Of a stretch of 64,000 nt of DNA, positions 13,459 to 46,173 are shown in pieces (positions within the stretch are counted from its first letter, which is position 1; every line of letters starts with the position of its first letter). This DNA is from Escherichia phage UPEC06: the sequence record MW250786; one strand, written 5' to 3'. The translations under genes and the position numbers were made by a program. The notes below the pieces were generated by a model. That model made no database searches. It was not told the DNA's origin and saw only the letters and a program-made list of their open reading frames with translations.

Positions 13459-14067
13459 TCAATCACAACTACTTGAAGAACTACTGCTGCTACTGTCAGA
13501 AGAATAACTATCATATGATGATGAGCTATCATACGAACTTGATCGACTTGAAGAACAGTAAGAACTTGAACTACTTGTACGATCTTCACTGGAGGACATT
13601 ACAGCAGCATACGTTGCCACACCACCTAAAGCTGCCACCTGAGGATCAACCTGGCTAGTTCCATATCCATTTGGAGAGTCGCTCATCTTACGTGGTGCTG
13701 CCCGACGTGCCTGATCAATATACTGTCGCTTTGCCTTCGGCGGTAATTTCTTACCTTGAGCATAGGACGGTAATTCAACGCCCTTCAGTTGTTCATTCAA
13801 AGGTTTCGGCGGTGTAGCCTGTGATTTTGGTCGTTCAACAGAGATATCAACAACCTTCATCGTCTTATCCTTGATGTTTACCCCAACCAGTACTTCATTT
13901 TCTTTTAATGGCTTTTCAAGATCGCGTGTTTCAACTGGACCAAATTTAACGCTTGCAGTTTCCTGACGTTGTTCGGCCTGCTTTGCAATATATTTGTCGA
14001 TCGCCGCAGTTTCTACTTCCAGCGGAATAAACAGTGATTTTACCCAAGCAACAAACTTCTTGATCAT
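13459..14067 (-). CDS. hypothetical protein with Ser-rich C-terminal tail
   Basis: 202 aa; C-terminal ~40 residues almost entirely Ser with Tyr/Asp/Cys. Confidence 0.5.
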   Translation of the reverse strand: MIKKFVAWVKSLFIPLEVETAAIDKYIAKQAEQRQETASVKFGPVETRDLEKPLKENEVLVGVNIKDKTMKVVDISVERPKSQATPPKPLNEQLKGVELPSYAQGKKLPPKAKRQYIDQARRAAPRKMSDSPNGYGTSQVDPQVAALGGVATYAAVMSSSEDRTSSSSSYCSSSRSSSYDSSSSYDSYSSDSSSSSSSSSCD

Positions 14068-15830: not shown

Positions 15831-16097
15831 TTATAACTTTTCTTTACCTAAAGTAAGATTGATCTCGAAAGCTTTTGTTGTAGCTTTGTCGTCTTCGTTG
15901 AAGAAATTAAATTGGACATAGCTCTCAGTCGAACTAACAGCCATACCTACAGAGACAGTTCCTTCTGGTACGAGATGCTTATATTCTTCTTTTAACACAA
16001 CGTCGTAAAAATACATCGTCCCACAATCAATTTCATCCCACCCATCAAAAGATTCGATGAAAGCTTTTTCAATACCAACTAAAGTCTTTTCTGACAT
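15831..16097 (-). CDS. hypothetical protein
   Basis: 88-aa ORF. Confidence 0.4.
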   Translation of the reverse strand: MSEKTLVGIEKAFIESFDGWDEIDCGTMYFYDVVLKEEYKHLVPEGTVSVGMAVSSTESYVQFNFFNEDDKATTKAFEINLTLGKEKL

Positions 16098-16120: not shown

Positions 16121-16393
16121 TTAGATATAGTCTACACCAGCTTGTTCCAACAAGTCAAGCCTTAATTTAAGTTCTTTTTCACGATAGTCGGAAACAAGTT
16201 TATCCTTTTTCTTTTCTTCTTCTTCGAACTGGTCGAGTGGAAGAATACGAATAATGTGTTCTGCCTTCATGTAGGATGTTGATCCGATAAGCTGAACATT
16301 ACCATTTGGCAGCAGTCGGCCTTTGATCACCCGATAACGAGGAAACAGATCATATTTGACGATTGCTGTAACTGCCATATTACTCATGTGCAT
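16121..16393 (-). CDS. hypothetical protein
   Basis: 90-aa ORF. Confidence 0.4.
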   Translation of the reverse strand: MHMSNMAVTAIVKYDLFPRYRVIKGRLLPNGNVQLIGSTSYMKAEHIIRILPLDQFEEEEKKKDKLVSDYREKELKLRLDLLEQAGVDYI

Positions 16394-16757
16394 TCTCCAT
16401 GTCAGAAATTCGATCTTCTACCCAACCACGACGGTAAATGTTGAGGTAAGATTTACCTTTTGAACCATGATGGGCATATTCGTCAAAATCAAAATCGAAA
16501 GGTGTCTCGGTGTTAAGACCTGCGTCAAAGAATTGATTCTTCATTTCGAATTGCACTTTCATGTCTGGATCATTTTTACCCAGGAATGAGGACAAATTAA
16601 AACAAAGGCCAGCGCCTCGGTAAAAAGCACCATCTTTTGGTGCACCAATGTCTAACCATTTCTTATATTCCTTGTAGAAATTCAGAAGTTGCGGACTGCT
16701 TTTCATTTTGTTCTCCTCATTTGTTTTGATAGGACTACTATAACATAGTCCTATCAA
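16380..16757 (-). CDS. hypothetical protein
   Basis: 125-aa ORF with RBS. Confidence 0.45.
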   Translation of the reverse strand: MIGLCYSSPIKTNEENKMKSSPQLLNFYKEYKKWLDIGAPKDGAFYRGAGLCFNLSSFLGKNDPDMKVQFEMKNQFFDAGLNTETPFDFDFDEYAHHGSKGKSYLNIYRRGWVEDRISDMENAHE

Positions 16758-16839
16758 CTTGTATACTATTTAATTAAAGATTTTATGAATGCTTGGTAGG
16801 ACCCTTCTTTACATACCCATCTGGATAATAAAAATCATC

Positions 16840-17217
16840 TTATACTCCAAATGTGGATTTGATTTCAGCAATAACCTCATGCACATTGTTTTCGTTTACT
16901 TCAAATGTGTAGGACGTTGGTTTAAGGAACGTCTGAGGTGAAACATTAACAAAGAATTCAAATTCATCATCAAAAATTTCAAAGTATTTTCCCGGTGTTG
17001 ATTCTTGACTTTTGAAAACAGAACCATCTTCCATAGTAACAGAAGAAACAGATTTTTCACCAAGGGTGTATGTTTTTAACTCATCAACAACGAAACTAGG
17101 ACCGTGACGACGTAGTATTTCAACCATAGTTCGGTTGGCCCCGCAAATACCTGCCCGCTTAATAAATAACTCTTCACACCGAGGATTGAGAATATAAGTT
17201 TTTCCTACTTGCATCAT
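16840..17217 (-). CDS. hypothetical protein, paralogue family member 3
   Basis: MxVGKTYxLNP...HGPxF...EDG...E.EF.FF...ETI.xIKSTF shared with the two upstream genes. Confidence 0.55.
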   Translation of the reverse strand: MMQVGKTYILNPRCEELFIKRAGICGANRTMVEILRRHGPSFVVDELKTYTLGEKSVSSVTMEDGSVFKSQESTPGKYFEIFDDEFEFFVNVSPQTFLKPTSYTFEVNENNVHEVIAEIKSTFGV

Positions 17218-17227
17218 AACAACCCCC

Positions 17228-17587
17228 TTATGATAAGTTAAATGTGGATTTGATCAGGTCGATAGTTTCTTGTGCGTTTTGCTCAGATACTGACACCTGG
17301 ATAATTTTAAGATCACTGACCTCTTCGAAGTATTTGAACTCGGATTCACGAAGTTCAAAGTACATTGCCCCGCAGCCCACACTGAATGAATCACACCCTA
17401 CAGCACCATCTTCTGTTGTGATGTTATTAACATACATATCACCTTCGATCATACTCATGTTGTTAACAATAAATCGCGGCCCGTGCTCATCCAGAAAAGA
17501 AACAATCTCGTGATTGTAACTTGGGTCAGCCTTAATAAATTCTTCCACGAATTTTGGATTAAGTTTATAAGTTTTACCCACTTCCAT
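17228..17587 (-). CDS. hypothetical protein, paralogue family member 2
   Basis: Clear similarity to 17599-17973 product; AAGGAG RBS. Confidence 0.55.
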   Translation of the reverse strand: MEVGKTYKLNPKFVEEFIKADPSYNHEIVSFLDEHGPRFIVNNMSMIEGDMYVNNITTEDGAVGCDSFSVGCGAMYFELRESEFKYFEEVSDLKIIQVSVSEQNAQETIDLIKSTFNLS

Positions 17588-17598
17588 TTTTGTTCTCC

Positions 17599-17973
17599 TT
17601 ACGCTAGGTTAAAGGTAGCTTTAATCAAGTCTACGGTTTCTTGTGCATTACTACGAGAGACGGCAACTTGAACGATAACAGGATCTTCATCTTCCCCGAC
17701 TTCTTTAAAGAAGGGAAATTCACTCTCTGCAAGTTCAAAGTATACACCCTTGTTACATTCGCAGCCGTGAAGACTGTCACTACCTAAAGTACCATCTTCA
17801 AATATGACATTGTTAACGTATGTAACATTATCATAAACGTGGGTGGTGTTGACAACAAATTTAGGACCGTGTTTATAAAGAAGGTCAGCCAATTCTTGAT
17901 TGTAGCTAGGGTCCATATTGATAAAAGCTTTTTCTAAGTCTTGATTAAGAATGTAAGTTTTTCCGATTTCCAT
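17599..17973 (-). CDS. hypothetical protein, paralogue family member 1
   Basis: Start moved to ATG 17973 (MEIGKTYILNQ) with GAGGAG RBS; track N-extension lacks RBS. Confidence 0.55.
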   Translation of the reverse strand: MEIGKTYILNQDLEKAFINMDPSYNQELADLLYKHGPKFVVNTTHVYDNVTYVNNVIFEDGTLGSDSLHGCECNKGVYFELAESEFPFFKEVGEDEDPVIVQVAVSRSNAQETVDLIKATFNLA

Positions 17974-18047
17974 CTTTGTTCTCCTCTTCAGTTGATGGAT
18001 ACATCTTAGTTGATGTGGATATGTCTTGTCAATAGCTTTTTGCACAT

Positions 18048-18075
18048 AAAAGAAAACCACCCCGAAGGGTGGTTT
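18048..18075 (-). terminator. Rho-independent terminator after DNA polymerase gene
   Basis: AACCACCC-cgaa-GGGTGGTT hairpin followed by T-run on - strand. Confidence 0.65.
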
Positions 18076-18081
18076 AAATTA

Positions 18082-20736
18082 TCAGTGGCACGCCCCCCAG
18101 TTCATCCCTGTGAGGTATTCACCTGTTATGTGTACAGGAGATTTCATCATTCGTGCTGCTTGCTCTACACAACGAACAACCATCTCTCCAACTGGACAAT
18201 ACATGATCGTGTAGATTCCATTCTCATCAGGATCACACTTAAACTTCCCTTCTTTCACACAATGACCATCCAAGATCATTTTCTTAGCCAAGCAAGCTTC
18301 TACAAATTTCTTCGCGTCAGCTTCGTTGTCAAAGGTCCAAGTCTTCTTGAACTTGTGCGGCACTTCAAGCTGGTATTCATCATGATAGTAAATGATACGG
18401 CGAACACCCTCATCATACCAACCTTTCTTGACCAACTGCCAGTGCAGGAGGATACCCACCAAGTCAAACAGTGCAGCACCACCATTCTGCTGATAAGCAT
18501 TAAGCAATGAGTGTTTGGAACGAGTGTAGATCTTACGTCCATCAAGACCGTAGATGAATCGCTTACCGTTAGCTTCCCAAAACTTCTCTAATGCTTCTTT
18601 ACGACCTTTCAAGCCGATGTTGCTATCCCAGAATGCGTCGATTACTGCCTGGGCTTTCTCAAGAGTGATTCCCAGCATTGATGCAATCTTCGCCGCCTGC
18701 GCCCCGTACATGATTCCGTATGTCACGCCTTTACCTTCACCACGAGAAACCTTCTTCCCTGCCGCTTTGGTATACGCTTCTGCGTTTCGGGAGTGAGCAT
18801 CTCCAGATTCCATGATACGAAGATAAGCGCCACCATCGAAATCATACGCGCCCCATGCCGCGATCATACCTTCCAAGTTTGAACCGTCGATACCTACCTG
18901 ATATTTACCCTCGGAGGCTCTAAACAGTTCACGCATCTCTTTACCGAGAAGAACTTTCTCATCCGGCTTAGGTACGTTTGCTACGATCGTATGCTTACGA
19001 CGACCTGTGTTAGTTATTCCACTATAACGGGCCGGAAGTTTACCGTCAACCCGTAGACGTGGATGGTTAAGCCATCCGGTATCAACCTTCTCTTCTTTCA
19101 GTGGGTCAAGAACAGATCGTCGGTTACGTAAAGACAGCCATTTAACAATCTGTTTAGCCATTTCACCATCTACTCGCTCAAGGTTAGGGCAAAGACCCTG
19201 CTGATCCTTAAGTTGTGGAGATGTTGGTAATGCACGGGCTTTCTTACGGAAGAACTTGAACATCTTTTCTTTATCGGACCACTGTTTAGGGGTGATCGAT
19301 AAGCTTTTCAGAATCAGATCACGATACTCCGTCTGATCCAAATCTTCAATATATTGACGAACAATCAGGTCAACCTCACTATCTGGACGTTGTTTCTTGA
19401 ACTGATCTTTAGTTGCATCCTTTGTACGCCAAATTGTTGGAATCCACCCTGCATCACGGATCAGGAACTTCTTAACGTCGTCCTGGTTACCAATACGCAT
19501 CGGGATCATAATGTCCGGCATCTTTTGTTCTTTGATATCCATCAAAGCACGAGCCATATCTTCCGGCGGCAAAGGAACAAGCCCTTGCTGCTTAACGTTT
19601 TGTGCACGGATAAAATCACCCATTTTGGATTCATCTTCTACACCGTGTTCAACACAATACTTGATCGCGGCGGCAGTAAGAGATCCGTCAGCCTTAAACG
19701 GCTTACTTGGTGCACCTTTAAACTCTAATGCTTCCCAATTGATATTATAACCTAACTTCTCTAACCATTTCCAACCTGTACCGGAAAGAGATCCATCACC
19801 CTTGAAAGGCTTAGATGGGAATGTCGGTTGTGCTGATTTCGACATTTCTTTCTTCGGTAACTTAGGTTCAACCTCTAACTCAATGTCTGTCATCATCTTA
19901 TCGATACGATCACGGAGCTTGAGTGCTTTTTCTTCATCAAATGAAACACCCTGAATCTCTTGCTCAATCATCAGGTAGTCGGTCAGCATACCTCGACGCA
20001 AGGCATTCTTCCAGTTGATCATTTTAAACTTCTTCTGATCTTTGTCTGTTTCATCCTTAAACATGAAGCGTTTATCATCGGGCATGGATTCACAAGAGAT
20101 CTCTTTCATCAGAGCATCCCACACCATTTCGTTGATAATTACGTCTTCAATAATACGATCGCAATATTTCCAAAGTGGAAGGCCACGCCAATCTTCAATC
20201 GCCACTTTCTGGTTGGCTACTCGCATACCCCAAGCTTCAAGCCCGTGAGGGCCTACAGGCTTCATTTTACCTGTGACTGGGTTCTTTACCATCTCGGGAC
20301 AACCACGAGGCAGAGGGCGATCTGGATACAATGTACGAGACATTGACAGTGTATCAAAGATGGTCACTTGTTTACCATTAATCGTACCCATGCAACCAGG
20401 GTCTGCAAACATATCGTAAGTTGTTCCAAGCATCTTCTTAAACAACTGGAGGTCGTAGCCGAAGATGTTGTGGATAGCAATTGCCTTAGGCTCTGTGACA
20501 AACCATTCGTTTAATTCTTCAATAGTGCGAATCTTAAAGTTTTTACCTTTAGATTGGATAAATTTAACAGCTTGATCGTAACCTTCCCGTTGGGGATCAA
20601 GAAAGATGTTCCAGTTATCTTTTTTATACTCTTTAAACAGGACGCAGTGAATGAGATCAACCTCTGTCAACAGGCCGTTAGCTTCCGCATCTCCAATAAA
20701 TAAGCCTTTCATTTTTTCTCCTTCTTTAAACTCCAA
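18082..20736 (-). CDS. DNA polymerase, family A, with 3'-5' exonuclease domain
   Basis: Exo I-like FIGDAEANG; motif A-like VGIDGSNLEGMIAAW; motif B-like RGEGKGVTYGIMYGAQ; motif C-like YYHDEYQLEV. Confidence 0.85.
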   Translation of the reverse strand: MEFKEGEKMKGLFIGDAEANGLLTEVDLIHCVLFKEYKKDNWNIFLDPQREGYDQAVKFIQSKGKNFKIRTIEELNEWFVTEPKAIAIHNIFGYDLQLFKKMLGTTYDMFADPGCMGTINGKQVTIFDTLSMSRTLYPDRPLPRGCPEMVKNPVTGKMKPVGPHGLEAWGMRVANQKVAIEDWRGLPLWKYCDRIIEDVIINEMVWDALMKEISCESMPDDKRFMFKDETDKDQKKFKMINWKNALRRGMLTDYLMIEQEIQGVSFDEEKALKLRDRIDKMMTDIELEVEPKLPKKEMSKSAQPTFPSKPFKGDGSLSGTGWKWLEKLGYNINWEALEFKGAPSKPFKADGSLTAAAIKYCVEHGVEDESKMGDFIRAQNVKQQGLVPLPPEDMARALMDIKEQKMPDIMIPMRIGNQDDVKKFLIRDAGWIPTIWRTKDATKDQFKKQRPDSEVDLIVRQYIEDLDQTEYRDLILKSLSITPKQWSDKEKMFKFFRKKARALPTSPQLKDQQGLCPNLERVDGEMAKQIVKWLSLRNRRSVLDPLKEEKVDTGWLNHPRLRVDGKLPARYSGITNTGRRKHTIVANVPKPDEKVLLGKEMRELFRASEGKYQVGIDGSNLEGMIAAWGAYDFDGGAYLRIMESGDAHSRNAEAYTKAAGKKVSRGEGKGVTYGIMYGAQAAKIASMLGITLEKAQAVIDAFWDSNIGLKGRKEALEKFWEANGKRFIYGLDGRKIYTRSKHSLLNAYQQNGGAALFDLVGILLHWQLVKKGWYDEGVRRIIYYHDEYQLEVPHKFKKTWTFDNEADAKKFVEACLAKKMILDGHCVKEGKFKCDPDENGIYTIMYCPVGEMVVRCVEQAARMMKSPVHITGEYLTGMNWGACH

Positions 20737-45552: not shown

Positions 45553-46173
45553 ATGGCTATCTATGCAAAACTGAAAGAAAGTAAGAAAAGTTATTTTATT
45601 TCAATGGACCCATCTAACCGACGTATGATTGAAAATCATGGTGATCGCTTCATTGTACGACCTTCCGAGAATAACGATTCTTACTTACGTCCGGTGGGTC
45701 CACGTATTGAGGGTCAGTTCTTAACATCCCGAGATATCGAAGAGTATTTTACATTCTTCCCTGAATGGTCAGCAGAGTCAGCAGAATACATCGTTAACCT
45801 AGCGATCCCAAGGGGTAGCGTTGCTATTGATGATCAGTATCTGCTGGGGGATAAATGGGGTGACTACAAGATCAAAACAAGTCATCCAAATATGTGGCGA
45901 CTGTATAACTCCGATAATCCTGACGATTATGTTATGCTTAAGCAAAGTAATTTGGAGAAATACTTCACCTTACAGGAAGATAGCTTAAAGAAAGCATTGG
46001 CTAAGTTTGACAATTACACACCTGCACCTGTAGAAAAAGAACAGGAAGTTGTAGATACGGATGTTTTTGAATTGAAGATTAAACGCACAGTAAGGGTTAA
46101 GGATGCAGAAATCACAGAGGACAATCTGGATCAGTTCATTGCACAGCTTACTAAACTGGTTAAAGGAGAATAA
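45553..46173 (+). CDS. hypothetical protein
   Basis: 206-aa ORF with AGGAGA RBS. Confidence 0.5.
   Translation: MAIYAKLKESKKSYFISMDPSNRRMIENHGDRFIVRPSENNDSYLRPVGPRIEGQFLTSRDIEEYFTFFPEWSAESAEYIVNLAIPRGSVAIDDQYLLGDKWGDYKIKTSHPNMWRLYNSDNPDDYVMLKQSNLEKYFTLQEDSLKKALAKFDNYTPAPVEKEQEVVDTDVFELKIKRTVRVKDAEITEDNLDQFIAQLTKLVKGE

What the first reader, a model, noticed from the sequence alone, without database searches (positions are those of the whole stretch)
16840..17973. Tandem triplication of a small gene directly downstream of the DNA polymerase terminator
Three consecutive - strand ORFs (about 125, 119 and 125 aa) share a clear pattern (MxxGKTYxLNP...HGPxFxV...EDG...FExxExEFxxF...ETxDLIKxTFNL) and each has its own RBS. 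Such tandem paralogue expansion in phages often marks genes under diversifying selection, but the function here is unknown.
Basis: seen in the sequence. Interest (0 to 1): 0.4.

Follow-up and report, generated by a model that had tools for sequence, protein, structure and literature searches.

The report
Three Frd.2-family early genes in tandem
Three neighbouring small genes in this rV5-like coliphage belong to the Frd.2 family, otherwise found only in T4-like phages; they look borrowed from such phages and assembled by cassette exchange rather than by one recent triplication, and their function is still unknown.

Summary
Three adjacent minus-strand genes encode clearly homologous proteins: A at 17599-17973 (124 aa), B at 17228-17587 (119 aa) and C at 16840-17217 (125 aa). 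Pairwise BLASTP E-values range from 1e-42 to 5e-19.

They are not orphans. All three pass the Pfam threshold for PF03197 (FRD2, phage T4 frd.2) and match phrog_622.

The window is a Vequintavirinae phage. Only five close relatives carry these genes. Every other homologue whose context I read lies in a T4-like phage.

"Triplication under diversifying selection" is not supported:
- A and B are sisters (93/100 bootstraps), but C is closer to a Mosigvirus Frd.2 paralogue (110 bits) than to A or B (64-66 bits).
- In relative LTH01 the third slot holds a different Frd.2 allele, colinear with a T4-like frd.2 and its downstream promoter/hairpin element.
- dN/dS between orthologues is 0.04-0.30, which indicates purifying selection.

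AlphaFold2 models (pLDDT 92) show an SH3/Tudor-like barrel plus a C-terminal helix. They match predicted structures of GoF and MotB.1, with no close solved structure. The family is acidic (pI 4.2-5.3).

My best reading is a set of early-expressed, non-enzymatic binding proteins for host takeover. That function is inferred, not shown. This is a new member of a known kind, of modest interest.

The parts
18054..18075 (-). Intrinsic-terminator-like hairpin (9-bp stem, GC-rich, followed by a T-run). It lies just after the DNA polymerase stop codon and marks the upstream boundary of the unit in this phage.
   Evidence: (scan) and the sequence (AAACCACCCTTCGGGGTGGTTT TCTTTTAT).
18003..18032 (-). Sigma-70-like promoter TTGACA-18-TAAGAT (10 of 12 consensus positions), about 30 nt upstream of the copy A start codon. 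It is the presumed early promoter of the three-gene operon.
   Evidence: This is a consensus match only; transcription was not measured.
17599..17973 (-). Copy A, a Frd.2-family protein of 124 aa. Its Shine-Dalgarno and start read GGAGAACAAAGATG at 17971-17984.
   Evidence: Pfam PF03197 E 1e-17, 65 bits against a cutoff of 29. phrog_622 E 1e-20. BLASTP to B E 1e-42. RBS motif.
17228..17587 (-). Copy B, a Frd.2-family protein of 119 aa. Its Shine-Dalgarno and start read GGAGAACAAAAATG at 17585-17598. It is the sister of A.
   Evidence: PF03197 E 3e-20. A+B clade 93/100. AlphaFold2 pLDDT 92.8, pTM 0.75.
16840..17217 (-). Copy C, a Frd.2-family protein of 125 aa, with Shine-Dalgarno GGGGG at 17223-17227. 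It belongs to a different sub-lineage, closest to the second Frd.2 paralogue of Mosigvirus phages.
   Evidence: PF03197 E 7e-20. 46% identity and 110 bits to Mosigvirus L003 2501-2863. AlphaFold2 pLDDT 92.0. The slot is replaced by another allele in LTH01.
16700..16784 (-). T4-type promoter/stem-loop cassette (PeSL-like) that forms the downstream boundary of the array. It comprises an AT-rich lead, TATACA-17-TATAGT (16765-16737), a perfect hairpin GATAGGACTA/TAGTCCTATC (16728-16755), a Shine-Dalgarno sequence, and the ATG of the unrelated next gene (16380-16706).
   Evidence: 84-89% nt identity to T4-like phages, at one to eight places per genome. Aligned with the sequence that follows frd.2 in T4 and lies between the two Frd.2 paralogues in Mosigvirus; the stem covaries between copies. 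Promoter scan. The hairpin is unique in the window. RNA fold z-score -4.2.

Best explanation
What it is (well supported). The locus is a three-gene operon of Frd.2-family proteins (Pfam PF03197, phrog_622). Apart from this small Vequintavirinae subclade (this phage plus A73, W70, A5-4, A7_1 and LTH01), every member whose genomic context I read lies in a T4-like phage. The most parsimonious origin is transfer from T4-like phages followed by local rearrangement:
- A and B form a duplicated pair.
- C belongs to a separate Frd.2 lineage, the type found as a second tandem paralogue in Mosigvirus.
- The array ends at a T4-type early promoter/stem-loop cassette, the same sequence that follows frd.2 in T4-like genomes.
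- The third slot is exchangeable. LTH01 carries a different allele there, colinear with a T4-like frd.2 plus this cassette.

How it most likely works (inferred). The genes are transcribed by host sigma-70 RNA polymerase right after infection, from the promoter behind the polymerase terminator. Each is translated from its own ribosome-binding site. Each product is a small, acidic, non-enzymatic protein: an SH3/Tudor-like beta-barrel with a two-helix insert, then a short linker and a C-terminal helix. I propose that the barrel binds a host macromolecule, more likely a protein of the transcription, RNA-turnover or replication machinery than RNA itself. This would tune early gene expression or host takeover. 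Three diverged versions would widen or split the range of targets.

Status of each step. Shown: homology, family membership, distribution, mosaic origin, purifying selection and the predicted fold. Inferred: early expression, the binding function and the identity of the target.
For: - Family membership: PF03197 at 65-73 bits against a cutoff of 29; phrog_622 at E 1e-20 to 5e-23.
- Distribution: tblastn with B finds 5 records at >=90% identity, all Vequintavirinae. The other 544 records are <60%, and those sampled are T4-like genomes. The same pattern holds for C. An exhaustive profile search of 1.84 billion representatives gives only 49 clusters. All seven contexts read are T4-like. Other Vequintavirinae share only the polymerase gene.
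- Composite origin: tree and bit scores. The LTH01 third-slot allele is 46% identical to C and 55% to Mosigvirus paralogue 1, with 74% nt identity over 462 colinear nt including the cassette.
- Cassette: alignment with stem covariation. Mosigvirus paralogue 2 is flanked by two copies of the cassette, the arrangement that Arbiol et al. 2010 showed can excise as a mini-circle (PMC2839356).
- Selection: dN/dS 0.04-0.30.
- Acidity: pI 4.33, 4.37 and 5.05 for the three copies; family median 4.5.
- Relevance: frd.2 was the only T4 'Fit' gene of unknown function in the CRISPRi-ART screen (PMC11879866).
Against: - No experiment addresses these proteins, and the wild-type function of every family member (Frd.2, GoF, MotB.1) is unknown.
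- A T4 frd.2 amber mutant plated with an efficiency near 1 (PMC12152347), so any role may be conditional.
- The promoter call is a consensus match only.
- The tree is neighbour-joining on about 120 columns. The grouping of C with the Mosigvirus paralogues has only 64/100 support.
- Protein identity to T4-like homologues is only 35-47%, so any transfer is old or the donor is unsampled.
- GC content does not mark the genes as foreign: 36.5-38.6% against a window mean of 40.3 +/- 3.5.
Confidence: 0.6

Rival explanations
1. One reading: one ancestral gene was triplicated in place, and the copies are diverging under positive (diversifying) selection, for example in an arms race.
For: The three genes are tandem, homologous and equally spaced. 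A and B are sisters and share the same translation-initiation sequence, GGAGAACAAA[R]ATG. Amino-acid differences between copy A orthologues cluster in the loop at residues 67-76: 5 of 12 differences, by my own post hoc count.
Against: C is closer to a Mosigvirus paralogue (110 bits) than to A or B (64-66 bits). A+B+C is monophyletic in only 9/100 bootstraps. dN/dS is 0.04-0.30. Paralogue dS is saturated. The third slot is replaced by a different allele in LTH01.
Confidence: 0.1
2. RNA chaperone or RNA-stabilising LSm-like proteins, as proposed for the GoF/MotB.1/Frd.2 family. The barrel would bind phage or host RNA directly and alter mRNA stability or translation. Paralogues could even form mixed rings, as Sm/LSm proteins do.
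For: Kim et al. 2025 predict an LSm-like N-terminal fold for Frd.2, and show that GoF(D25Y) stabilises a reporter RNA (PMC12152347). My model matches GoF and MotB.1 models in BFVD. A few LSm or Sm-containing entries appear among non-significant Foldseek PDB hits.
Confidence: 0.15
3. Anti-defence (counter-defence) proteins. The three divergent copies would act as inhibitors or decoys against variants of a host immune system, which would explain the array and the swapping of the third cassette.
For: The genes appear to be early and accessory. They lie in a plastic region with indels and homing endonuclease genes nearby. They show allelic replacement, a patchy distribution outside T4-likes and small acidic products. 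This pattern is typical of known anti-defence loci (general knowledge).
Against: In T4-like phages frd.2 is nearly universal and sits at a fixed position between gene 32 and frd. It scored as a fitness gene in a laboratory E. coli strain. Both points suggest a general role rather than a strain-specific counter-defence. No similarity to any characterised anti-defence protein was found.
Confidence: 0.15

Closest known systems
Phage T4 Frd.2 (Pfam PF03197 FRD2; phrog_622)
   Same: Sequence family: 30-39% identity over the full length, well above the Pfam threshold. Similar size (119-128 aa), an acidic product, and apparent early, accessory status. The same promoter/hairpin sequence lies downstream of the gene.
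   Different: The host genome is a Vequintavirinae phage, not a T4-like one. The location is next to a PolA-type DNA polymerase gene instead of between gene 32 and frd. There are three copies in a row; the T4-like genomes I examined have one or two.
GoF / MotB.1 / Frd.2 'LSm-like fold' family of T4 early proteins (Kim et al. 2025, PMC12152347)
   Same: The predicted N-terminal barrel is followed by a variable C-terminal part. My model retrieves GoF and MotB.1 models. FeoA-type SH3 domains are among the nearest solved folds, as that paper also reports.
PeSL (promoter-early stem-loop) mobile regulatory cassettes of T4-type phages (Arbiol et al. 2010, PMC2839356; Comeau et al. 2014, PMC4122927)
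   Same: The element at 16700-16784 has an AT-rich lead, -35/-10 hexamers close to the PST/T4 consensus TTTACW-N17-TAYWAT, a stem containing AGGA...TCCT (the AGNA...TCNT type), a Shine-Dalgarno sequence and an ATG. It sits at an indel or replacement boundary, and two copies flank a cassette in Mosigvirus.
   Different: It is found in a non-T4-type phage. Under my promoter assignment the stem overlaps the spacer and -10 hexamer rather than lying upstream of the promoter. Terminator activity and mini-circle formation were not tested.
SH3/Tudor-like interaction domains (FeoA; CarD, Mfd, UvrD and PcrA RNA-polymerase-interacting domains; EF-P domain I)
   Different: No sequence similarity (6-21% identity). 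There is a two-helix insertion between strands 1 and 2 and an extra C-terminal helix. The scores are too low to infer a shared ligand.

Membership tests
Pfam PF03197 (FRD2) / phrog_622 | Whole-protein score above the curated gathering threshold (29 bits) | tested here: met
   65.0, 73.1 and 71.9 bits for A, B and C. phrog_622 matches at E 1e-20 to 5e-23 cover nearly the whole profile.
Pfam PF03197 (FRD2) / phrog_622 | Shared architecture: N-terminal beta-barrel, linker, C-terminal helix | tested here: met
   The AlphaFold2 models of B and C (pLDDT 92.8 and 92.0) have the same order of elements. The best BFVD matches are full-length proteins from T4-like phages.
T4-like frd.2 locus (orthology with T4 frd.2) | Position between gene 32 (ssb) and frd (dihydrofolate reductase) in a T4-like genome | tested here: not met
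   Here the genes follow a PolA-type DNA polymerase gene in a Vequintavirinae genome. The T4-like contexts appear.
T4 early genes | Transcription from a sigma-70-type early promoter within the first minutes of infection | tested here: inconclusive
   TTGACA-18-TAAGAT lies upstream of copy A. This is a consensus match only, with no expression data.
LSm/Hfq fold proteins | Sm-type five-stranded bent sheet that is closest in structure to Sm/Hfq proteins | tested here: not met
LSm/Hfq fold proteins | Ring-shaped oligomer and RNA binding | not testable with these tools
   Needs biochemistry or multimer modelling. The acidic pI of 4.3-5.05 argues against direct RNA binding.
PeSL regulatory cassette | Composite of an AT-rich region, sigma-70-like -35/-10, a stem-loop, a Shine-Dalgarno sequence and a start codon, repeated within T4-type genomes | tested here: met
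   All components are present at 16700-16784. There are one to eight similar places per T4-like genome.
PeSL regulatory cassette | Stem-loop located just upstream of the promoter and acting as a terminator; recombination between copies yields mini-circles | tested here: inconclusive
   Under my assignment the stem overlaps the promoter spacer and -10 hexamer, and no T-run follows it. Terminator function and mini-circles need experiments.

The most novel reading that the evidence does not exclude
The locus may record gene flow between two unrelated families of large coliphages, Straboviridae (T4-like) and Vequintavirinae. The vehicle would be the T4-type promoter/stem-loop cassette, so PeSL-mediated modular shuffling would not be confined to T4-type phages. 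The resulting three-member Frd.2 set might then act as a combinatorial (possibly hetero-oligomeric) adaptor system that broadens which host factors the phage can engage.
Probability: 0.25. Interest if true: 0.55.

Novelty: new member of a known kind. Interest (0 to 1): 0.35.

Why it matters
Frd.2 is one of the most conserved T4 early genes of unknown function, and was the only such gene scored as important for fitness in a genome-wide knock-down screen (PMC11879866).

Finding the family outside T4-like phages, in three diverged copies and with an exchangeable third slot, offers two things. First, it provides natural variants and an independent genetic background in which to look for the binding partner. 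Second, it gives a concrete example of a T4-type regulatory cassette marking a cross-family gene transfer.

It does not reveal a new kind of system.

Tried and rejected
- The word-indexed protein search found only the A73 orthologue. The exhaustive profile search was needed instead.
- The PDB sequence search gave no meaningful hit (best E 0.043).
- PADLOC gave only a chance-level Csm4 match (E 0.006).
- The afdb50 fold library was unavailable.
- GC and GC3 content do not distinguish the three genes from their surroundings, so they were not used as evidence of transfer.
- Paralogue dN/dS is uninformative because dS is saturated or undefined.
- One promoter pattern search used the wrong spacing and missed the element itself, so it was disregarded.
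- Plus-strand ORFs overlapping the genes (for example 17244-17513) were treated as spurious: the conserved, family-matching frames are all on the minus strand.
- The neighbouring genes downstream (16380-14067) match assorted PHROGs of unknown function and showed no DNA-level match to T4-like phages.

Full report
**Observation.** The region contains three back-to-back minus-strand ORFs at exactly the reported coordinates:
- A: 17599-17973, 124 aa counted from the ATG at 17973.
- B: 17228-17587, 119 aa.
- C: 16840-17217, 125 aa.

The proteins align over their full length with 34 invariant columns. Pairwise BLASTP gives E 1e-42 (A-B, 52% identity), 7e-20 (B-C) and 5e-19 (A-C). At the DNA level only patches remain alignable (A-B 66% over 201 nt), so the copies are old.

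Each gene has its own Shine-Dalgarno sequence, and the genes are 10-11 nt apart. The DNA polymerase gene (18082-20736, 884 aa) ends in a terminator-like hairpin at 18075-18054.

**Identity.** The genes are not orphans. All three score 65-73 bits against Pfam PF03197 (FRD2, "Bacteriophage FRD2 protein"; threshold 29 bits). All three match phrog_622 at E 1e-20 to 5e-23, and there is a weak hit to the goF PHROG. T4 Frd.2 itself (128 aa, phrog_622) aligns end to end at 30-39% identity.

**Whose genome.** The window is 94-97% identical in this region to Escherichia phages A73, W70, A5-4, A7_1 and LTH01, all classified as Vequintavirinae. All five keep three Frd.2-family genes in the same order.
- In A5-4 and A7_1, three or four extra ORFs lie between the polymerase gene and copy A. 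One of them, in A7_1, is an HNH endonuclease gene.
- A5-4 also has an extra ORF after copy C.
- Other Vequintavirinae share only the polymerase gene, at 66-79% nt identity.

**Distribution of the family.** tblastn with copy B finds 549 phage records. Five are >=90% identical, and these are the relatives above. The other 544 are <60% identical, and the sampled rows are T4-like genomes of 160-186 kb, many annotated frd.2/FRD2. Copy C gives the same pattern.

An exhaustive profile search of 1.84 billion representative proteins returns only 49 clusters at E <= 0.001. All seven genomic contexts I read are T4-like. They sit either between gene 32 and frd or, for the most divergent members, at the goF position near gene 39 and rIIA. 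By parsimony the family is native to T4-like phages and was imported into this Vequintavirinae subclade.

**Not a simple triplication.**
- In a neighbour-joining tree of 37 family members, A and B are sisters (93/100 bootstraps). A+B+C is monophyletic in only 9/100. C groups with the Mosigvirus paralogues in 64/100.
- Directly, C scores 110 bits (46% identity) against the second Frd.2 paralogue of Mosigvirus LF82-31, and only 64-66 bits against A and B.
- Mosigvirus phages, and one metagenomic T4-like contig, themselves carry two Frd.2 paralogues. Multi-copy arrays therefore already exist in the presumed donors.
- In LTH01 the third slot holds a different gene (129 aa). It is 46% identical to C and 55% to Mosigvirus paralogue 1. 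That gene and the sequence after it are colinear with Mosigvirus paralogue 1 and its downstream element (74% nt over 462 nt).
- Window C and the LTH01 allele share 76% nt identity over the first 282 nt. They are unalignable in the 3' half, and 91% identical again from the downstream element onwards. This is the signature of cassette replacement or gene conversion.

**The downstream element.** Positions 16700-16784 match T4-like phages at 84-89% nt identity, at one to eight places per genome. The element contains:
- an AT-rich lead;
- TATACA-17-TATAGT;
- a perfect 10-bp inverted repeat, GATAGGACTA/TAGTCCTATC, which is unique in the window and extends to a 13-bp stem in the RNA fold (z = -4.2);
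- a Shine-Dalgarno sequence and the ATG of the unrelated next gene.

Homology with T4-like phages stops at that ATG. The same element follows frd.2 in T4, and in Mosigvirus it lies both between and after the two paralogues. Between copies the stem changes sequence but keeps its pairing (GGGTAAT/ATTACCC).

These are the components of the PeSL cassettes of Arbiol et al. 2010 and Comeau et al. 2014. Those cassettes mediate indels and replacements in T4-type hyperplastic regions and can form mini-circles (PMC2839356, PMC4122927). One caveat applies: under my promoter assignment the stem overlaps the promoter instead of preceding it.

In addition, GGAGAACAAA[R]ATG occurs at the starts of A and B. 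A one-base-shorter version occurs at the next gene. Chance expectation in the window is 0.1. This suggests that the duplicated unit included the translation-initiation region.

**Selection.** Nei-Gojobori dN/dS between the window and its relatives is shown below.

| Gene | dN/dS |
|---|---|
| A | 0.11-0.30 |
| B | 0.10-0.15 |
| C | 0.04-0.08 |
| Downstream neighbour 1 (16380-16706) | 0.02-0.07 |
| Downstream neighbour 2 (16121-16393) | 0-0.06 |
| Downstream neighbour 3 (15831-16097) | 0.25-0.40 |

This is purifying selection. The one hint of local variability is that 5 of 12 amino-acid differences in copy A fall in the loop at residues 67-76, where a cysteine also shifts position. That is a post hoc count and only weak evidence.

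**Structure.** AlphaFold2 with a 37-38 sequence alignment gives confident models: B at pLDDT 92.8 and pTM 0.75, C at pLDDT 92.0. The element order is strand 1, two helices, strands 2-4, a variable loop, a short helix with strand 5, a linker, and a C-terminal helix.
- Foldseek against the PDB finds nothing at E <= 0.001.
- Foldseek against BFVD retrieves many uncharacterised proteins of T4-like phages, plus GoF (E 5.5e-4) and T4 MotB.1 (E 8e-4).

The BFVD result independently reproduces the GoF/MotB.1/Frd.2 relationship described by Kim et al. 2025 (PMC12152347). The fold is best described as SH3/Tudor-like. A specifically LSm-type assignment is not supported by my ranking.

**Function.** Nothing is known experimentally for wild-type Frd.2.
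- Kim et al. found that a T4 frd.2 amber mutant plates normally.
- The CRISPRi-ART screen scored frd.2 as the only T4 fitness gene of unknown function (PMC11879866).
- GoF(D25Y) stabilises an mRNA, but wild-type GoF and MotB.1 do not, and the authors regard the mutant as a gain of function.
- The whole Frd.2 family is acidic: pI 4.15-5.27, with the window copies at 4.33, 4.37 and 5.05 and net charges of -13, -12 and -5. This argues against direct nucleic-acid binding and for protein binding.

I therefore favour small, early, non-enzymatic adaptor proteins that bind a host or phage protein, perhaps in the transcription, RNA-turnover or replication machinery. Direct RNA binding and anti-defence remain as rivals. 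This step is inference.

**Verdict.** The feature is real, and its family is already known though of unknown function. The new points are:
- its presence outside T4-like phages;
- the three-member array of composite origin;
- the polymorphic third slot;
- the T4-type regulatory cassette at the boundary.

I rate it as a new member of a known kind, of modest interest.

Noticed in passing
window 16700-16784 (- strand): An 85-nt T4-type promoter/hairpin/RBS cassette (PeSL-like) is shared at 84-89% nt identity with many T4-like phages, at one to eight places per genome. Its stem sequence covaries between copies. Here it drives an unrelated gene (16380-16706, phrog_2510).
   Followed up: yes
window 45553-46173 (+ strand): A 206-aa ORF whose first ~77 residues resemble the Frd.2 N-terminal domain only remotely (hmmsearch E 9e-6; hhalign probability 77%). 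It is found only in the same five related phages and may be a fourth, distant member of the superfamily.
   Followed up: partly
window 18082-20736 (- strand); L001 7483-10885, L002 5591-8809, L006 3918-6636: The DNA polymerase gene is one uninterrupted 884-aa ORF here. In A73, A5-4 and LTH01 it is annotated as two pieces around a ~0.5-kb ORF, which probably marks an inserted mobile element. A7_1 instead has an HNH endonuclease gene directly downstream of the polymerase gene.
   Followed up: no
window 13459-14067 (- strand): This 202-aa ORF ends in a tail of about 45 residues made almost entirely of Ser, with scattered Tyr, Asp and Cys.
   Followed up: no
window 17585-17598, 17971-17984 and about 16704-16716 (- strand): A near-identical translation-initiation sequence, GGAGAACAAA(A/G)ATG, precedes copy A and copy B, and a one-base-shorter form precedes the gene after the cassette. 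Chance expectation in the 64-kb window is 0.1.
   Followed up: partly
window 17599-17973, residues 67-76 of copy A: Amino-acid differences between copy A orthologues cluster in the variable loop between strands 4 and 5. The number of cysteines is kept but their positions change: HGCECNKG here against HDCEGNKC in A73.
   Followed up: no
L003 2053-2863 (Mosigvirus LF82-31) and protein P0004: T4-like Frd.2 paralogues look mosaic. Mosigvirus paralogue 1 and P0004 combine an N-terminal half like paralogue 2 with a C-terminal part (from ~residue 100) nearly identical to T4 Frd.2 (identical in P0004). This suggests recombination between paralogues.
   Followed up: no
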